Shown in pieces: positions 1-5,347 of a stretch of DNA of 64,000 nucleotides. The translations under genes were made by a program, and so were the position numbers. Every line of letters starts with the position of its first letter. The stretch's first letter is position 1. The DNA is from Escherichia phage inny: the sequence record MN850601.1. One strand, given 5' to 3'. A model generated the notes under the pieces. That model ran no database searches, had not been told where the DNA came from, and saw only the letters and a list, made by a program, of their open reading frames with translations.

Positions 1-568
1 CATCTCCTTCGTTGGTGTGTATATTAATAAGGTCACAAAACAAAGTCAAGTGTTTTTGTGTTGGATGAAAACGATCTGCTCCTTGATAGATAGGATACTC
101 AAACACACCCTTATGGTAGGAAGCATTGAAGGTTGGCTTCGAACCTTTAACACAAACAATAGCCATCTCTTTAGCGTTACTAAGATAGTTAACACCACTG
201 TTGATGGGTACAGGGTTTGTTTTAATCCATTCGATAGTACGGAACATACGAAAACCAAGCGGTTCAAGGATTTCACGTAGCTCCTGGATCTTCCAGATAT
301 CATACCAAACTATGCAAGTACCACCTTTTCTAAGCACCCTGTAGGCTTCTTTGAATACTTCTTTAAAATAAGGAATATCTACAACATCCCAATCACCGAA
401 GTTGTAAGATACACGGAATCTATCCGTATCTTTTCCAGTAGGCTCTCCAGACTGAAAATTTGTGTCACGAGAAATAGCATATGGTGGGTCAGTAAGAATC
501 AAATCTACACTATTGCTTTCGAGGGTTTGCAGGTAGTTTAATGCAGTGTTGTTTACAAATTCGCTCAT
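1..568 (-). CDS. DNA methyltransferase, beta-class (N6-adenine/N4-cytosine type), partial; 3' end lies beyond window start
   Basis: Truncated by window edge so absent from ORF track; minus-strand ATG at 568 preceded by GAAGGAG; translation MSEFVNNTALNYLQTLESNSVDLILTDPPYAISRD... has DPPY motif near N-terminus, uninterrupted to position 1. Confidence 0.75.
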   Translation of the reverse strand, partial: MSEFVNNTALNYLQTLESNSVDLILTDPPYAISRDTNFQSGEPTGKDTDRFRVSYNFGDWDVVDIPYFKEVFKEAYRVLRKGGTCIVWYDIWKIQELREILEPLGFRMFRTIEWIKTNPVPINSGVNYLSNAKEMAIVCVKGSKPTFNASYHKGVFEYPIYQGADRFHPTQKHLTLFCDLINIHTNEGD

Positions 569-628
569 TATATCTCCTTCAAAGAAAAGGAGCCGTTAGG
601 CTCCTTATATTCACACAATACTTAACTA

Positions 629-1576
629 TTAGAAACAGTGCAGGAAGTTTCGACCATACTGCAAACCAATAGGAGCAAATGGGATATCATCATCGAAATC
701 TTGAACAACAGGTTCTGGTTCTTTCGGTGCTGGTTCTTTCTTCTCTACTTTTTTAGTTTCTTTCTTAACTTCTTGTACTGGGGTAGACATTCCACGGATA
801 GCAGCAGCTACTTTATCAGACAAAGCAAGAACTTCACGAGCAGCTTCAATAATCTCTTCTGCCGTTACAGTTTTACCTGTATGATCACGACAAGCGTTAA
901 GAATTGCGTGTCCAACTGAAGCACCAAGATCATAGTCAGTCACATCAACGCCACGATCTTTAGCAATTTCTGCTTTCAGAGTAACAGTTGCAGATTGTAC
1001 CACACCAGCCAAGTCGAAAGCATCACCTTTCACACCAGCACGTAGAAGCTCCAGAGCGCCGTTTACAGCGTGTCCTGTTTCAATCCCTACGGTATCACGT
1101 TTTTTGTAGTTAGGCTTGCTACCTTCGTTATTAGATGGCTTATTTCCACCTTTTGAAGAAGATTGTGCTTGCTGAACACCTTCTGTTGAAAGAATAGTGA
1201 TTTTACCTTTAGAGGAATTGTAGTATGTTTTGCCATTCCATTCAGAAGGTTTAACATCCATAGTTAGTTCTACACCTTTTTCGATAGTAACCCACTTATC
1301 ACCATCTTTAACTTGCAGGTTTTCATGTTCTGGGTGCAGTTTAACTTCACCTAGGCTAACCCAAACACCTTTATCATCAGCACCAGCACCTTTCTCTTTA
1401 ATAAGCAGGGATGCTTTGTGAGTTGATTCAATTTTCTTATCTGGTTGACCTGCAACCTTAATATAAGAGACTTTCATTTCATCAAACTTATCCAGTTTGA
1501 CATATTCAACGATACCTTCAGCCCAGAATGCTTCTTTTTTAGTACGACGGTCGATTTCAGAATTAATTACTGGCAT
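629..1576 (-). CDS. ssDNA-binding protein-like
   Basis: 315 aa; C-terminal region ...EPVVQDFDDDIPF matches E. coli SSB acidic tail motif (here followed by 15 more residues); Gly/Ser/Asn-rich linker. Confidence 0.45.
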   Translation of the reverse strand: MPVINSEIDRRTKKEAFWAEGIVEYVKLDKFDEMKVSYIKVAGQPDKKIESTHKASLLIKEKGAGADDKGVWVSLGEVKLHPEHENLQVKDGDKWVTIEKGVELTMDVKPSEWNGKTYYNSSKGKITILSTEGVQQAQSSSKGGNKPSNNEGSKPNYKKRDTVGIETGHAVNGALELLRAGVKGDAFDLAGVVQSATVTLKAEIAKDRGVDVTDYDLGASVGHAILNACRDHTGKTVTAEEIIEAAREVLALSDKVAAAIRGMSTPVQEVKKETKKVEKKEPAPKEPEPVVQDFDDDIPFAPIGLQYGRNFLHCF

Positions 1577-1592
1577 AAATTCTCCTCTATAA

Positions 1593-1991
1593 TTACATTA
1601 CTTTAACACAAAACTCTCGTAAAAGAGTAGCGTCAGTTTCTTCCAACAGGTATTTACCAAGACCAATACCAAATCCTATTTCACCACTTTCGAAATGGAG
1701 GATTTGTATCTTTTCTCCACCAAGATTAATTACTTTTGCTTTTCCAGGATTATCCAAAACATCTCGTATTGTATCCTGTAGTAACATAAGCTCACGTTTT
1801 GTGATAGTGGTTTCAGATATCTCTTTGTTTTCTACTCTCACTGTTAAACGATTGTATCCACCAAAGAGACATAGTATTTGAATAAAAAAGGTATTATCTT
1901 GAGGTTCAACATCTTTTTTGGTTAGCTCAAGACGATTAGTTTCTCTACTGTAGAACGTCTCGACTAAGATTTTAGAACGATTATCTGTCAT
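1593..1991 (-). CDS. hypothetical protein
   Basis: 132 aa ORF, co-directional with leftward block. Confidence 0.5.
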   Translation of the reverse strand: MTDNRSKILVETFYSRETNRLELTKKDVEPQDNTFFIQILCLFGGYNRLTVRVENKEISETTITKRELMLLQDTIRDVLDNPGKAKVINLGGEKIQILHFESGEIGFGIGLGKYLLEETDATLLREFCVKVM

Positions 1992-2034
1992 TCAAGTCCT
2001 CATAATAACACATAATTATAATGTTTGTCAACAC

Positions 2035-2767: not shown

Positions 2768-5347
2768 CTAGTGACAAGACGCCCATGAGTTACCAACATC
2801 GTAACCAGCAGTGAGAGGTACATTAAGATTGTAATACTCACCAGCTTTATTAACAGCGATAGATGCTAATTCTCCAGCACGACTGTAGGCTGTAAACCAA
2901 CCACCTTTCGGAGATTCATGTACGTTAGCCCAAATCTTGCCAGTACGTTTCTCTTCCTCTTCTTTCCAGGCATTAACCTTATCCAAACATTCTTTATCAA
3001 TTTTCTTTTGTTCTTCTGGATCATCAACTTGAGTCCAACCTAAAGATTCTTTAGAAAACCATTTAAAATGCACCAGATCACGAGTTACTTCAAGCTGTGC
3101 TTCATCGTGATATGCAATCATTTGTTGAACGAATGACTTATTTTTCCAGTCATCAACAAAAAAGTCAACAGCTAATCCTTCTTCTTCGATAAGATCGTCG
3201 TAGATAACCATTGCTCTTTTTGCACAAATAACACCACCACTCTGGAACAGAGAGTTAAGTATTGCGTGTGCAGATCGTGTAGGTACTTTTCTACCATCAA
3301 TACCAAGAATGTATTTCTTACCTGTTTTAACCCAAAAATCATGCAGACGTTCTTTAAGAAGCGCAAGAGGTTTTGCAGCTTCCCAGAAAGCATCGTATAC
3401 AAGTTGTCCTGTATACATATCACTACCTATAGTTTTTGCTACTTTTGCAGCTTGAGCACCATAAGTAATACCATACTTAACAGATTTAGCAGGGCTTCGT
3501 TCAAACTTACGACCAATAGTGTCAGAAATACGTCGAGCCATCATTGTATGAACATCATTAGGTTTTTCCAATAATAGAGCATTACAATATTCGTGTGGTT
3601 CCTGCTCGTACCGCCAACAGTAGTGTGATTCTATTTTTGCCTCAAGAGAATCAAAGTCATAACCAATTTGGAAGTATTTTGGAACTTCTACACCAAATAA
3701 GTTACGCATTTCATATCCGTACAGAGATGTTACACGTGGGATATTTGCTACTAACCTATGTTTCATACGAGACGTAGCTGCATCACACGTTGCAGCAGGG
3801 GTTGGTATACGACCATCAGCCCTTACTGCCGCCAGATAACCTTTATCGTAATCCTCTTCATCTTCTTCCCAATCAGCACCACCACCTAGGATAGAGTTTC
3901 TACGATGTTTATACGTAAGATATTGCACAATCTGCGTAGCATAAGGAAACTTTTCACCCAGTGCTTCCAAGTTAGGACAAATATCTTTCTCTTGCCCTTT
4001 TGTAAAGGAAGGGTTAGTAAGCACTTTAACACCACGACCTTTAGCTTTAGCAATACGATCTCTTAGTTTCCATTCCAAAGTTTCTGGTGTGCACTCCAGA
4101 TGATCACATCTGTCCTGGCAGAAGTTAGATGCTAATGTTTGATCAACATAGTCACGAATAGCTTTCTCCATTTGTGCTTCATCTTTCTTAATCTTAGTGC
4201 CAGATTTAAGAGTGATATCTTTATCTTTATATTCAGATGGACTCCAACCTAAACCAACTAACCAGTTTTTAATATGTGTAGTGTCGTCTAAAGTAGCAGG
4301 TACTGTAGGATCACAAATAGGTTCTTCTGCTGGAATAGGGAGTTTAAACTCTTTACCTAATGCAAATAGCCACCAACCATCTTCTTTTTGTACAAGTTCA
4401 CCAGAATGTTTCTCTGCAAACTTTATCATGTTACTTGAAGGTTCACCATTCTTTTTAAACTGTAGTTTAGGTGGAATGAATGATTTCAAATAACCTTTAG
4501 TAGCAGGTTTAGGAGGTAACACAGGTTCTGCCTCTAAACGACATGCTTCCATTCGAGCATCCAGATCACGAATATTATCTTCTGCTTGTTTCATATTGAA
4601 AGCAAAGCCACGGTGCTCTTGACGTGTAATAATATCAGCTACACGTTGTTCTAAGTTAAAGGGTTCAGACCATTTATTATAATCACCCCACTCTTCCATC
4701 AAATAACGGAATACTGCGGTGTTAGCTTTGTTATCGTAAATACAGTAATACAGCATATCTGCTGCAAATGTTTTAAATCTTTCAGTTTCAGGAATGTTTT
4801 TTCTAAAATCAATTTTAACATCCCCTCCAGCTTTCTTAGATAACTCTGCCAGACTATGACCACCGAAGCGATCAGGGTTTAGTGTCTTACTTAAGATCAT
4901 AGTATCACAAATTTCAATGTTACTATTACCCCAAGTATTGTACTTAATACTGTAGTTGAGTTTAAAAAATAATTTAATTGCCAGTAAGTCAAAGTTAATG
5001 ATGTTATGTCCAACTACTTTGGTAATTTTATAGTTTGAATTACCTTTAAATTTACCTGTTCCATTTACAAAATCAGGAAAATCTTTAAGAGGGAAATGGG
5101 TATATTCTAAATGCTCATATTCCTCCAGTCGGTATTCATACTTTCCGTCAGTCTCAACATACGGACGACCATCGAAAAGATATTTATCACCATCATGGAA
5201 AGCAATAATCTCTCCAGTATCATGACTTTCGCACACAATACAGTGCATTGCAAAACTATCTTTTAAACGATATGGACTTGCCAAGTAATCTACACTTTCG
5301 TCATTAAGCAAGTTGTTACTTTCAATGTCGAAAGTAAAAGCTCCCAT
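2768..5347 (-). CDS. DNA polymerase, family A, with 3'-5' exonuclease domain
   Basis: 859 aa; exo motif FTFDIESNN at N-terminus; motif A-like GYDFDSLEAK, motif B RSPAKSVKYGITYG, motif C AYHDEAQ. Confidence 0.9.
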   Translation of the reverse strand: MGAFTFDIESNNLLNDESVDYLASPYRLKDSFAMHCIVCESHDTGEIIAFHDGDKYLFDGRPYVETDGKYEYRLEEYEHLEYTHFPLKDFPDFVNGTGKFKGNSNYKITKVVGHNIINFDLLAIKLFFKLNYSIKYNTWGNSNIEICDTMILSKTLNPDRFGGHSLAELSKKAGGDVKIDFRKNIPETERFKTFAADMLYYCIYDNKANTAVFRYLMEEWGDYNKWSEPFNLEQRVADIITRQEHRGFAFNMKQAEDNIRDLDARMEACRLEAEPVLPPKPATKGYLKSFIPPKLQFKKNGEPSSNMIKFAEKHSGELVQKEDGWWLFALGKEFKLPIPAEEPICDPTVPATLDDTTHIKNWLVGLGWSPSEYKDKDITLKSGTKIKKDEAQMEKAIRDYVDQTLASNFCQDRCDHLECTPETLEWKLRDRIAKAKGRGVKVLTNPSFTKGQEKDICPNLEALGEKFPYATQIVQYLTYKHRRNSILGGGADWEEDEEDYDKGYLAAVRADGRIPTPAATCDAATSRMKHRLVANIPRVTSLYGYEMRNLFGVEVPKYFQIGYDFDSLEAKIESHYCWRYEQEPHEYCNALLLEKPNDVHTMMARRISDTIGRKFERSPAKSVKYGITYGAQAAKVAKTIGSDMYTGQLVYDAFWEAAKPLALLKERLHDFWVKTGKKYILGIDGRKVPTRSAHAILNSLFQSGGVICAKRAMVIYDDLIEEEGLAVDFFVDDWKNKSFVQQMIAYHDEAQLEVTRDLVHFKWFSKESLGWTQVDDPEEQKKIDKECLDKVNAWKEEEEKRTGKIWANVHESPKGGWFTAYSRAGELASIAVNKAGEYYNLNVPLTAGYDVGNSWASCH

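What the first reader, a model, noticed from the sequence alone, without database searches (positions are those of the whole stretch)
629..1576. SSB-like protein with an internal copy of the E. coli SSB C-terminal tip (DFDDDIPF) followed by 15 extra residues
The host SSB tail ends exactly with DFDDDIPF and recruits many genome-maintenance proteins. Here the same octapeptide is present but not terminal (…VVQDFDDDIPFAPIGLQYGRNFLHCF). This may be a phage SSB that competes for host SSB-interacting proteins, or the extension may modulate that interaction.
Basis: partly seen in the sequence, partly recalled or inferred. Interest (0 to 1): 0.4.

Follow-up and report, generated by a model that had tools for sequence, protein, structure and literature searches.

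The report
Phage SSB with extended docking tail
A phi92-type coliphage encodes an SSB-like protein whose host-mimicking tail tip (DFDDDIPF) is followed by a conserved 15-residue add-on that also occurs on hundreds of phage, prophage and plasmid SSBs and apparently has not been described, so the tail probably docks differently from the host SSB tail.

Summary
ORF 629..1576 (-) encodes 315 aa ending ...DFDDDIPF(300)-APIGLQYGRNFLHCF(315). It is not a frameshift or sequencing error: 52 phage records, including phi92 gp156, keep the tail to the last residue.

The protein belongs to PHROG 4477. Its predicted structure is an N-terminal OB fold, a 4-helix domain and a disordered acidic tail. A homologue, Bas52_0087, was reported in 2026 as the SSB-like trigger of the DRT10 defence; that homologue ends exactly at IPF.

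The main finding concerns the extension. It is a conserved, portable module, A-P-[IV]-[GT]-L-[QPM]-[YF]-[PG]-[RN]-H-x-I-[HYN]-x-[IL], almost always 14-16 residues long.
- It follows the acidic-[IT]PF tip on canonical PF00436 prophage SSBs, on at least three other SSB-like families and on a Klebsiella-phage primase/helicase.
- Its invariant residues use all synonymous codons, so selection acts on the peptide.
- Near-identical phages differ only in having it or not.

Mechanism (inferred): the add-on buries the α-carboxylate that host partners use to anchor the tip, and it adds a second docking peptide. This would retarget the tail to a conserved, probably host-encoded, partner that remains unidentified. 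I found no paper containing the motif strings.

The parts
629..1576 (-). Complete CDS of the SSB-like protein (315 aa; ortholog of phi92 gp156; PHROG 4477)
   Evidence: ORF list and sequence; phrog_4477 E=2.2e-101; 55 phi92-like phages at 95-99% DNA identity; full tail kept in 52 records.
1187..1576 (-). Residues 1-130: N-terminal all-beta domain, predicted OB fold (presumed ssDNA-binding core)
1097..1186 (-). Residues 131-160: low-complexity disordered linker between the two folded domains
   Evidence: pLDDT 44-61; variable in the family alignment.
797..1096 (-). Residues 161-260: four-helix domain carrying the family's most conserved residues (D161, G164, G168, H169, T197, K201, Y215, D216, G218, G222, A228). 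Probable oligomerisation domain.
   Evidence: Helices 163-179, 186-208, 215-230 and 239-260 at pLDDT >90. Invariant columns. D161 aligns with D252 of Bas52_0087, whose D252V change escapes DRT10 and was mapped by the authors to a putative oligomerisation interface.
701..796 (-). Residues 261-292: Lys/Glu/Pro-rich intrinsically disordered linker
   Evidence: pLDDT about 50-63; length and sequence vary among homologues.
677..700 (-). Residues 293-300: DFDDDIPF, a copy of the E. coli SSB C-terminal tip, here internal
   Evidence: Sequence. P299 and F300 are invariant and D293, D296 and D297 are nearly invariant in the family. Most homologues stop exactly here.
632..676 (-). Residues 301-315: APIGLQYGRNFLHCF, the conserved 15-residue extension module
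   Evidence: The same motif is on 21 of 100 family members, on PF00436 SSBs and on other carriers. All synonymous codons are used at the invariant A1, P2, G4 and L5 positions. Length is 14-16 in 93 of 96 canonical variants.
587..606 (-). Intrinsic-terminator-like hairpin (AAGGAGCC-TAAC-GGCTCCTT + T-run) about 20 nt after the stop codon
   Evidence: Terminator scan; visible in the sequence.
1593..1991 (-). Upstream co-oriented 132-aa ORF (PHROG 16560, function unknown), probably co-transcribed from a promoter-like site at 2031..2002
   Evidence: ORF list; promoter scan, 11/12 match; phrog_16560 E=7e-76. Not homologous to the gene upstream of the rV5 ortholog, so probably not an obligatory partner.

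Best explanation
The gene encodes the phage's SSB-like protein. It has an OB-fold domain, a conserved four-helix (probably oligomerisation) domain and a disordered acidic linker. The linker ends in a composite docking tail: a copy of the host SSB tip (DFDDDIPF) fused to a second conserved 15-residue peptide, A-P-hydrophobic-G-L-x-aromatic-turn-...-hydrophobic-COOH.

Shown:
- The extension is real.
- It is under peptide-level purifying selection.
- It has a nearly fixed length.
- It is portable between unrelated ssDNA-associated carriers.
- It toggles on and off between near-identical phages.

Inferred:
- Host partners anchor the tip through the free alpha-carboxylate of the last Phe, which sits buried in a pocket. 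An internal IPF should therefore bind classical partners (ExoI, RecO and similar) poorly.
- The conserved add-on provides a second contact.
- The long tail therefore acts as a specificity switch, or bivalent tag, that couples the ssDNA-bound protein to a particular conserved partner.
- That partner is most probably host-encoded, because the same tail serves phages with and without their own replisome. Its identity is not established. The beta sliding clamp is only a loose candidate.
For: Family and fold:
- phrog_4477 E=2e-101.
- Homology to Bas52_0087, BLASTP 2e-15 and 3e-14, described as SSB-like in bioRxiv 10.64898/2026.04.29.721553.

The extension is real:
- 52 phage records keep it.

It is a conserved module:
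- 115 unique extensions were collected; 96 share the [AS][PSY]x[GT][LK] start and 93 of those are 14-16 residues long.

Selection acts on the peptide:
- In 45 unique DNA versions, Ala1 uses 4 codons (16/12/9/8), Gly4 uses 4 and Leu5 uses 6, while the amino acids stay invariant.

Portability:
- 38 of 50 IMG/VR carriers are PF00436 SSBs.
- mEp235 SSB, Vibrio phage K433 SSB-like and phrog_7364 and phrog_32668 proteins.
- KpS8 primase/helicase ends ...DDDTPFAPIGLQYAKHAIYVI.

On/off switching in near-isogenic phages:
- rV5 (423 aa, extended) versus Bas52, Bas57 and FFH2 (408 aa, ending at IPF) at about 99% identity.
- ECO340P2 versus Schickermooser.
- Because those pairs have essentially the same gene content, no dedicated phage partner is required.

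Arguments for a host partner:
- The tail occurs in lambdoid prophages that have no polymerase, in large lytic phages that have their own replisome and in plasmids.
- It is almost confined to Gammaproteobacteria.
- The distal half differs between Enterobacterales (xxHxI[HY]x[ILV]) and marine orders (P[AQS]LLxC[MI]).

The free carboxylate matters:
- In the RecO/SSB-Ct crystal structure, Pro176-Phe177 sit in a hydrophobic pocket and Arg132 anchors the carboxyl end (PMC3152348).
Against:
- AF2 gives the tail pLDDT <50, so there is no structural hint.
- Neighbour-gene clustering around 73 carriers found no consistently linked gene, and it cannot reveal a host partner either.
- Near-isogenic phages live with or without the extension, so its benefit may be conditional or small.
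- According to the preprint, DRT10 also restricts Stephanstirmvirinae, whose BASEL members carry the extended tail. The extension therefore does not obviously abolish whatever that defence senses.
- The host-order split in the distal half could reflect phage phylogeny rather than co-evolution with a host protein.
- The clamp idea fails one defining feature of clamp-binding motifs: no Gln at position 1, where Pro is invariant.
Confidence: 0.5

Rival explanations
1. Capping or stealth. The extension works mainly by hiding the alpha-carboxylate of the tip. The phage SSB then does not recruit host ssDNA nucleases and helicases (ExoI, RecJ, RecQ) to phage ssDNA, or does not titrate them and trip defences that monitor them. 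The acidic tip itself is retained for intramolecular regulation of ssDNA binding.
For: - Partner pockets anchor the terminal carboxylate (PMC3152348).
- A free-tip family member, Bas52_0087, is the DRT10 trigger, and ExoI dosage antagonises that defence.
- Extension and no-extension alleles alternate among close relatives, as expected for an arms-race trait.
Against: - A mere cap would not need a fixed length of 14-16 residues or invariant A-P-x-G-L...aromatic residues kept across hundreds of divergent genomes.
- IPF stays invariant in extended tails.
- DRT10 is reported to restrict Stephanstirmvirinae as well, whose BASEL members carry the extension.
Confidence: 0.2
2. Tag for the phage's own replisome. 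As with T7 gp2.5 and gp4, whose acidic C-terminal tails both dock on the phage DNA polymerase (established T7 biochemistry, from my own knowledge), the tail tethers the SSB-like protein, and in Mydoviruses the primase/helicase, to the phage family-A DNA polymerase encoded a few genes away.
For: - The same tail is on the primase/helicase of Klebsiella phages KpS8 and Iguana_ER37, directly next to the DNA polymerase gene.
- Mydovirus records have two tail-bearing places (H62).
- The window gene lies in the replication cluster with the polymerase and primase/helicase.
Against: - Most carriers are canonical SSBs of lambdoid or temperate elements and plasmids, which encode no DNA polymerase.
- rV5 versus Bas52/Bas57 differ in the extension while having about 99% identical replication genes.
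- The window's own primase/helicase lacks the tail.
Confidence: 0.15
3. Degradation tag. The hydrophobic C-terminus (…HAI, …YVI, …HCF, …ALYA) is a degron for a host AAA+ protease (ClpXP, ClpAP, Lon or FtsH) that limits the level or lifetime of the mobile-element SSB.
For: - The motif is strictly C-terminal with a fixed distance to the end and a hydrophobic last residue.
- A few variants end in …ALYA, faintly reminiscent of the ssrA tag. That resemblance comes from memory only.
Against: - The best-conserved residues are the proximal A-P-x-G-L-x-Y, not the last three.
- No variant ends in the LAA-type signal.
- A replicative SSB is needed in large amounts, which a constitutive degron would work against.
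- The tail is also on a primase/helicase.
Confidence: 0.08
4. No function. The 15 codons are a sequencing or read-through artefact, or the passive footprint of a homing-endonuclease cassette that inserts just after the DDDIPF codons.
For: - In rV5 the extension plus an endonuclease VII gene form one insertion relative to Bas57, and the endonuclease start codon lies inside the Q-Y-G codons.
- Similar endonuclease ORFs start 10-28 nt before the stop codon of the extended gene in 4 of the 80 fetched loci: L015, L034/L035 and L056.
- An HNH gene follows the tailed primase/helicase in Iguana_ER37.
Against: - 52 records keep the tail.
- In the large majority of carrier loci no ORF overlaps the extension.
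- The window has a terminator and then a methyltransferase gene downstream.
- Invariant amino acids are encoded by every synonymous codon, which excludes DNA-level constraint or recent common descent as the cause of conservation.
Confidence: 0.03

Closest known systems
Bas52_0087 (QXV84166.1) of Vequintavirus RudolfGeigy / rV5 ORF214: SSB-like trigger of the DRT10 (UG17) reverse-transcriptase defence (bioRxiv 10.64898/2026.04.29.721553)
   Same: - Same PHROG 4477 family.
- Homologous OB domain and helical domain (BLASTP 3e-14 and 2e-15).
- The DRT10 escape residue D252 corresponds to the nearly invariant D161 here.
- Acidic linker ending in FDDDIPF.
   Different: - Bas52_0087 has an extra inserted beta domain (408 aa; the authors count two OB folds).
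- It ends exactly at IPF.
- The window protein has one OB domain and the 15-residue extension.
- In the passages I read the preprint does not mention extended tails, although rV5 itself has one.
E. coli SSB (PF00436) and its C-terminal tip SSB-Ct
   Same: - OB-fold core by structure prediction.
- Disordered linker.
- Identical last-eight motif DFDDDIPF.
   Different: - No PF00436 sequence match.
- An additional four-helix domain.
- The tip is not terminal, so the carboxylate contact used by partners such as RecO is unavailable.
Extended-tail prophage, phage and plasmid SSBs of Gammaproteobacteria (e.g. phage mEp235 SSB, AFM76249.1)
   Same: The same composite tail...EPPMDFDDDIPF + AP[IV][GT]L[QPM][YF]....[ILV].
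   Different: These are canonical PF00436 SSBs. They often sit in recombination modules next to Rad52/Erf-type annealases and exonucleases. They are annotated simply as SSB, with no note on the extension.
T7 gp2.5 / gp4 acidic C-terminal tails and the HK620 SSB tail (NDYPPF) that recruits Sak4
   Same: The principle of a phage ssDNA-binding protein, and of a primase-helicase, using a short acidic or aromatic C-terminal tail to recruit partners. For HK620 the last six residues are needed for Sak4 stimulation (PMC5928155). The shared tail on SSB and primase/helicase is seen in KpS8.
   Different: Those tails end at the aromatic residue. Here a second conserved peptide follows it. There is no sequence similarity to the extension.
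Beta-sliding-clamp binding motifs (QL[SD]LF / QLxLxL; consensus recalled from the literature, not tested)
   Same: P-[IV]-G-L-[QP]-[YF] has the same hydrophobic spacing (positions 2, 4 and 6) as the hexapeptide form and lies in a flexible terminus.
   Different: - Position 1 is invariant Pro, never Gln.
- Eight or nine more conserved residues follow.
- The Pseudomonas, Kistimonas and Pasteurellaceae variants do not fit.
- No binding evidence.

Membership tests
PHROG 4477 (phi92 gp156 / rV5 ORF214 / Bas52_0087 SSB-like proteins) | Significant full-length match to the family profile | tested here: met
   E=2.2e-101, two stretches, profile positions up to 393/393 ending at residue 300. rV5 ORF214 matches at E=4.8e-174.
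PHROG 4477 (phi92 gp156 / rV5 ORF214 / Bas52_0087 SSB-like proteins) | N-terminal OB-type beta domain, conserved helical domain with the D-x-x-G-x-E-x-G-H motif, and disordered acidic tail | tested here: met
   AF2 model; invariant and near-invariant columns D161, G164, G168, H169; alignment to Bas52_0087.
PHROG 4477 (phi92 gp156 / rV5 ORF214 / Bas52_0087 SSB-like proteins) | ssDNA binding and oligomerisation | not testable with these tools
   Only inferred from the fold and from the escape-mutant mapping in the preprint.
Bacterial SSB family (Pfam PF00436) | Match to the PF00436 model above its gathering score | tested here: not met
   No Pfam family at E<=1. By contrast mEp235 SSB scores 125 bits.
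Bacterial SSB family (Pfam PF00436) | OB fold resembling SSB cores | tested here: met
SSB-Ct docking tip | Acidic run followed by I-P-F | tested here: met
   DFDDDIPF at residues 293-300, identical to E. coli SSB 170-177.
SSB-Ct docking tip | Phe is the last residue, giving a free alpha-carboxylate for the partner's basic anchor | tested here: not met
   15 residues follow. The anchor role of the carboxylate is documented for RecO Arg132 (PMC3152348).
SSB-Ct docking tip | Binding to ExoI, RecO, chi, PriA, RecQ | not testable with these tools
   Needs peptide-binding assays.
Extended mobile-element SSB tail (class defined in this report) | [DE]-rich-[IT]PF immediately followed by A-P-[IVL]-[GT]-L-x-[YF], with the C-terminus 14-16 residues after PF and a hydrophobic last residue | tested here: met
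   The window tail fits every position of the consensus derived from 55 unique 15-mers and from 45 unique DNA versions.
Beta-clamp-binding motif | Gln at motif position 1 | tested here: not met
   Pro in 54 of 55 unique extensions, never Gln.
Beta-clamp-binding motif | Hydrophobic residues at positions 2, 4 and 5/6 in a disordered terminus | tested here: inconclusive
   The I/V, L, Y/F spacing fits, but the pattern carries little information and the consensus is recalled from memory. No binding test.
Homing-endonuclease-borne sequence | Extension always linked to an adjacent or overlapping endonuclease gene | tested here: not met
   An overlapping endonuclease ORF is seen in only L015, L034/L035 and L056 of the 80 fetched loci, plus rV5. 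The window has a terminator and then a methyltransferase gene.

The most novel reading that the evidence does not exclude
The 15-residue add-on is an unrecognised short linear motif of mobile genetic elements in Gammaproteobacteria. Appended to the host-type SSB tip on SSBs of several folds, and on a primase/helicase, it would redirect ssDNA-bound phage proteins from the general SSB interactome to one specific conserved host hub: a replication, repair or proteolysis factor not known as a classical SSB-Ct client, or a classical client bound in a new high-affinity, possibly inhibitory, mode. This would be a switchable module exchanged among phages, partly by homing-endonuclease co-conversion.
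Probability: 0.35. Interest if true: 0.75.

Novelty: new variant of a known kind. Interest (0 to 1): 0.55.

Why it matters
- The SSB C-terminal tip is a central hub of bacterial genome maintenance. It is a target for antibacterial design, a determinant of recombineering portability and, as now reported, is linked to the triggering of an anti-phage defence.
- The accepted picture is that the tip works because its last Phe is terminal. A large class of phage, prophage and plasmid SSBs keeps the tip perfectly but buries it under a second conserved peptide. This suggests a second, undescribed mode of tail docking.
- Identifying the partner could reveal how mobile elements privatise or subvert the host SSB interactome.
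- It could explain why closely related phages toggle the module.
- It could inform recombineering design and the interpretation of SSB-sensing defences such as DRT10 and retron Eco8.
- Near-isogenic natural pairs, rV5 versus Bas52/Bas57 and ECO340P2 versus Schickermooser, make the question directly testable.

Tried and rejected
- Pfam on the protein: no hit.
- Exhaustive phmmer of the 30-aa tail against 1.84 billion representatives: only 3 significant hits, because the query is so short.
The 45-aa profile search returned mainly short SSB fragments.
- Full-text search for the strings DIPFAP, IPFAPIG, IPFAPVG, PIGLQY, PVGLQY and DDIPFA: no paper. Other literature searches found nothing on extended tails.
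- PDB sequence search with the tail profile: only a terminal DFDDDIPF; no structure contains the extension.
- Neighbour-gene clustering around 73 carriers: ordinary prophage early-region genes (methyltransferases, an Erf-like annealase, exonucleases and other early-region ORFs) with no gene consistently linked to the extension.
- The small ORF upstream of the window gene is not homologous to the one upstream of rV5 ORF214, so the idea of a conserved two-gene module was dropped.
- Context of the tail-only 108-aa protein P0101: a 670-nt contig, uninformative.
- Homing-endonuclease footprint hypothesis: examined and rejected as the general explanation.
- Resemblances to the SulA/Lon degron, the ssrA tag and PDZ ligands were considered from memory and dropped, because the conserved residues do not match.

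Full report
**Observation.** The minus-strand ORF at window 629..1576 is intact. It has a strong ribosome-binding site and encodes 315 aa ending ...EPEPVVQDFDDDIPFAPIGLQYGRNFLHCF*.
- DFDDDIPF occupies residues 293-300 and equals the last eight residues of E. coli SSB (168-PMDFDDDIPF-177, quoted in PMC4118853).
- Fifteen residues follow it.
- The window comes from a phi92-like coliphage (Justusliebigvirus, Stephanstirmvirinae): 55 phage genomes match the region at 95-99% DNA identity.
- A 58-aa query spanning linker, tip and extension is matched end to end, at 96.6-100% identity, in 52 records including phi92 gp156 and the BASEL phages EmilieFrey and JohannJBalmer.
- The frameshift or sequencing-error idea is therefore excluded.

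**What the protein is.**
- Pfam finds nothing. The protein is a clear member of PHROG 4477, function unknown (E=2e-101). Some GenBank records name it SSB and most call it hypothetical.
- An AlphaFold2 model built on 42 homologues (mean pLDDT 82) shows:
  - an all-beta domain at residues 1-130;
  - a disordered linker;
  - a four-helix domain at 163-260;
  - a disordered tail from 261.
- The most conserved residues of the family lie in the helical domain: D161, G164, G168, H169, T197, K201, Y215, D216, G218, G222, A228.
- The gene sits in the replication cluster. A terminator and a Dam-like methyltransferase gene lie downstream; a nucleotidyltransferase, a family-A DNA polymerase and a primase/helicase lie upstream.
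- ssDNA binding itself is inferred, not shown.

**Link to recent work.** A 2026 preprint (10.64898/2026.04.29.721553) reports that escape from the DRT10/UG17 reverse-transcriptase defence maps to Bas52_0087.
- The authors describe Bas52_0087 as having an AlphaFold SSB-like architecture and an FDDDIPF C-tip. They propose that it perturbs ExoI (SbcB)-dependent ssDNA processing.
- I retrieved Bas52_0087 (MZ501102, 75981-77207). It is 408 aa, ends exactly ...SFDDDIPF*, and is homologous to the window protein in both folded domains (BLASTP 3e-14 and 2e-15).
- Its escape position D252 aligns with the near-invariant D161 here.
- The family is therefore already recognised as SSB-like. The extension is not mentioned in the passages I read.

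**The extension is a conserved, portable module.**
- Of 100 homologues, most stop exactly at IPF. Twenty-one carry [AS]P[IVL]GLQY... plus about 8 more residues, scattered among subclades that otherwise share the same N-terminus.
- The same composite tail appears on unrelated carriers:

| Carrier | Tail |
|---|---|
| Canonical PF00436 SSB of lambdoid phage mEp235, between a Rad52-type annealase and an exonuclease | ...DFDDDIPFAPVTLPFPRHAIHAI |
| rV5 ORF214 | ...DFCDDIPFAPVGLQYGKSRIHAL |
| 178-aa SSB-like protein of Vibrio phage K433 | ...DFDDDIPFAPVGLQFGKKFMHVI |
| phrog_7364 and phrog_32668 proteins, and a 108-aa apparently tail-only protein | |
| DNA primase/helicase of Klebsiella phage KpS8 | ...GPDDDTPFAPIGLQYAKHAIYVI |

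- Distribution:
  - IMG/VR holds 215 confirmed loci. Of 50 unique carriers from the 80 fetched, 38 are PF00436 SSBs.
  - 194 phage records and 124 plasmid records cover at least 80% of a tail query.
  - Many prophage SSB fragments from E. coli, Salmonella, Proteus, Providencia and Klebsiella carry it.
  - It occurs in 47 GTDB species genomes, nearly all Gammaproteobacteria.
- I collected 115 unique extensions. Ninety-six have the canonical start, and 93 of these are 14-16 residues long.
- The consensus is A-P-[IV]-[GT]-L-[QPM]-[YF]-[PG]-[RN]-H-x-I-[HYN]-x-[IL].

**Selection.** In 45 unique DNA versions the invariant residues are encoded by all their synonymous codons:
- Ala1: GCT/GCC/GCA/GCG at 16/12/9/8.
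- Pro2: three codons.
- Gly4: four codons.
- Leu5: six codons.

The window and ECO340P2 extensions differ at five synonymous and zero non-synonymous sites, although their linkers are unrelated. Conservation therefore acts on the peptide, not on the DNA, and is not due to recent common descent.

**Switching between forms.**
- In Phapecoctavirus, ECO340P2 (extended) and Schickermooser (ending at IPF) are almost identical up to the Phe codon and diverge after it. A possible decayed relic of the extension follows the Schickermooser stop codon.
- In Vequintavirus, rV5 (423 aa) differs from Bas57, Bas52, FFH2 and others (408 aa, about 99% identical) by one insertion placed right after the Phe codon. 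The insertion contains the 45-nt extension, a stop codon and an endonuclease VII-type gene whose ATG lies inside the Q-Y-G codons.
- This raised the possibility that the extension is only a homing-endonuclease footprint. However, overlapping endonuclease ORFs occur in only four of the 80 fetched loci (L015, L034/L035, L056) besides rV5. The window has none. The codon evidence also excludes a DNA-level explanation.
- More likely, homing endonucleases that sit at SSB 3' ends spread the long tail by co-conversion.

**How it probably works (inference).**
- In solved complexes the last two tip residues sit in a hydrophobic pocket and a basic residue anchors the terminal carboxylate. In RecO this residue is Arg132, and ExoI is described as similar (PMC3152348).
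- An internal IPF lacks that carboxylate, and the chain must leave the pocket. Classical partners should therefore bind it less well.
- A simple cap would not need a fixed length and invariant residues, so the add-on most probably makes its own specific contact.
- Three observations argue that the partner is host-encoded and conserved in Gammaproteobacteria:
  - The same module serves temperate elements without a polymerase, large lytic phages with their own replisome, plasmids, and a primase/helicase.
  - Near-isogenic phages differ only by the module.
  - The distal half differs between Enterobacterales and marine orders.
- I could not identify the partner.
- The P-[IV]-G-L-x-[YF] core has the hydrophobic spacing of hexapeptide beta-clamp motifs. 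It never has the defining Gln, and non-enteric variants do not fit, so this is only a weak lead.
- Rivals are given with confidences in the report sections: capping/stealth against nuclease recruitment or SSB-sensing defences, a tag for the phage's own polymerase in the T7 manner, and a degron.
- According to the preprint, DRT10 also restricts Stephanstirmvirinae, whose BASEL members carry the long tail. This argues against a simple stealth role towards that defence.

**Novelty and verdict.**
- The protein family, its SSB-like nature and the SSB-Ct motif are known. The conserved post-tip extension appears undescribed: no paper in the searchable library contains the motif strings and no PDB chain contains it.
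- I class it as a new variant of a known kind.
- It is of moderate to fairly high interest, because it contradicts the expectation that the tip must be terminal and is directly testable with natural allele pairs.
- Confidence is high for the descriptive claims and moderate to low for the mechanism.

Noticed in passing
L003 (rV5) 3044-3667; L015 2589-3104; L034 2544-2984; L056 2562-3173; L007 1638-2183: A family of endonuclease VII/HNH-type (PHROG 1035/2340) putative homing endonuclease genes sits immediately after, or overlapping, the 3' end of tail-bearing SSB and primase/helicase genes in unrelated phages. In rV5, L015 and L034 the start codon is embedded in the extension codons (…Q-Y-G = caaTATGGc). 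rV5 differs from Bas57 by exactly this cassette, with clustered substitutions just upstream, as in a co-conversion tract.
   Followed up: partly
L005 (Klebsiella phage KpS8) 518-2581; L007 (Iguana_ER37) 1-1581: The DNA primase/helicase of Mydoviruses ends with an SSB-like tip plus the extension (...GPDDDTPFAPIGLQYAKHAIYVI). These genomes have a second tail-bearing place as well, probably the PHROG 4477 protein. This recalls T7 gp4 and gp2.5 sharing tails.
   Followed up: partly
L088 662-2566 (IMG/VR contig 3300020046_003745, 4 kb): An ORF with a strong SU10 portal-protein match (E=2.4e-178) continues into a Gln-rich linker plus ...EFDDKIPFAPIGLQYRSILNCM. This is nearly the same linker and tail as the SSB-like protein of L026. 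It is either a real domain fusion or a chimeric metagenome assembly.
   Followed up: no
L006 (Schickermooser) 2536-2560 versus L008 (ECO340P2) 2536-2560: After the TGA that ends the short allele, the sequence TCTTATTGATTTATAA resembles the extension codons GCTCCTATTGGACTGCAA of the long allele with a 1-nt shift (about 14 of 22 matches). This is a possible decayed relic indicating loss of the extension by a frameshift-created stop.
   Followed up: partly
P0101 (L139, 670-nt contig): A 108-aa, apparently disordered protein consists of little more than two tip copies and the extension (...DDDFPFDEDIPFAPIGLQYGRNFLHCF). It could be a free tail decoy, but there is no genomic context.
   Followed up: partly
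phage collection records MG065639, MG065644-46, MG065655-56, MG065674, MG065689: Records labelled 'Campylobacter phage' (host C. jejuni) are about 99-100% identical to E. coli phi92-like and rV5-like phages in this gene. The host labels look doubtful.
   Followed up: no
P0066 (UniRef A0AAU7PI71, Salmonella phage SalP219): A 409-aa member of this SSB-like family with the extended tail is named 'Tail fiber protein' by its source. This is probably a misannotation.
   Followed up: no
L130-L132, L126/L129/L134, L119/L121 (Pseudomonas/Stutzerimonas, Kistimonas, Pasteurellaceae genomes): Other lineages carry shorter or different post-tip extensions that still begin with A-P-hydrophobic: APISRLLLNII, APLHHLAGA, APLGYRQLA, APIHHGYSKHSITVI. 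A further type lacks the AP: IPF-LGHGYGVCRKAIYAIS. There may be several classes of extended tails.
   Followed up: no
window 1..611 and L004 1236-1967, L005 1-509: A DNA adenine-methyltransferase gene lies next to the tail-bearing gene in the window, in Vibrio phage K433 and in KpS8. Methyltransferases are also among the commonest neighbours of extended prophage SSBs. This is probably ordinary early-region synteny, but it was not examined.
   Followed up: no
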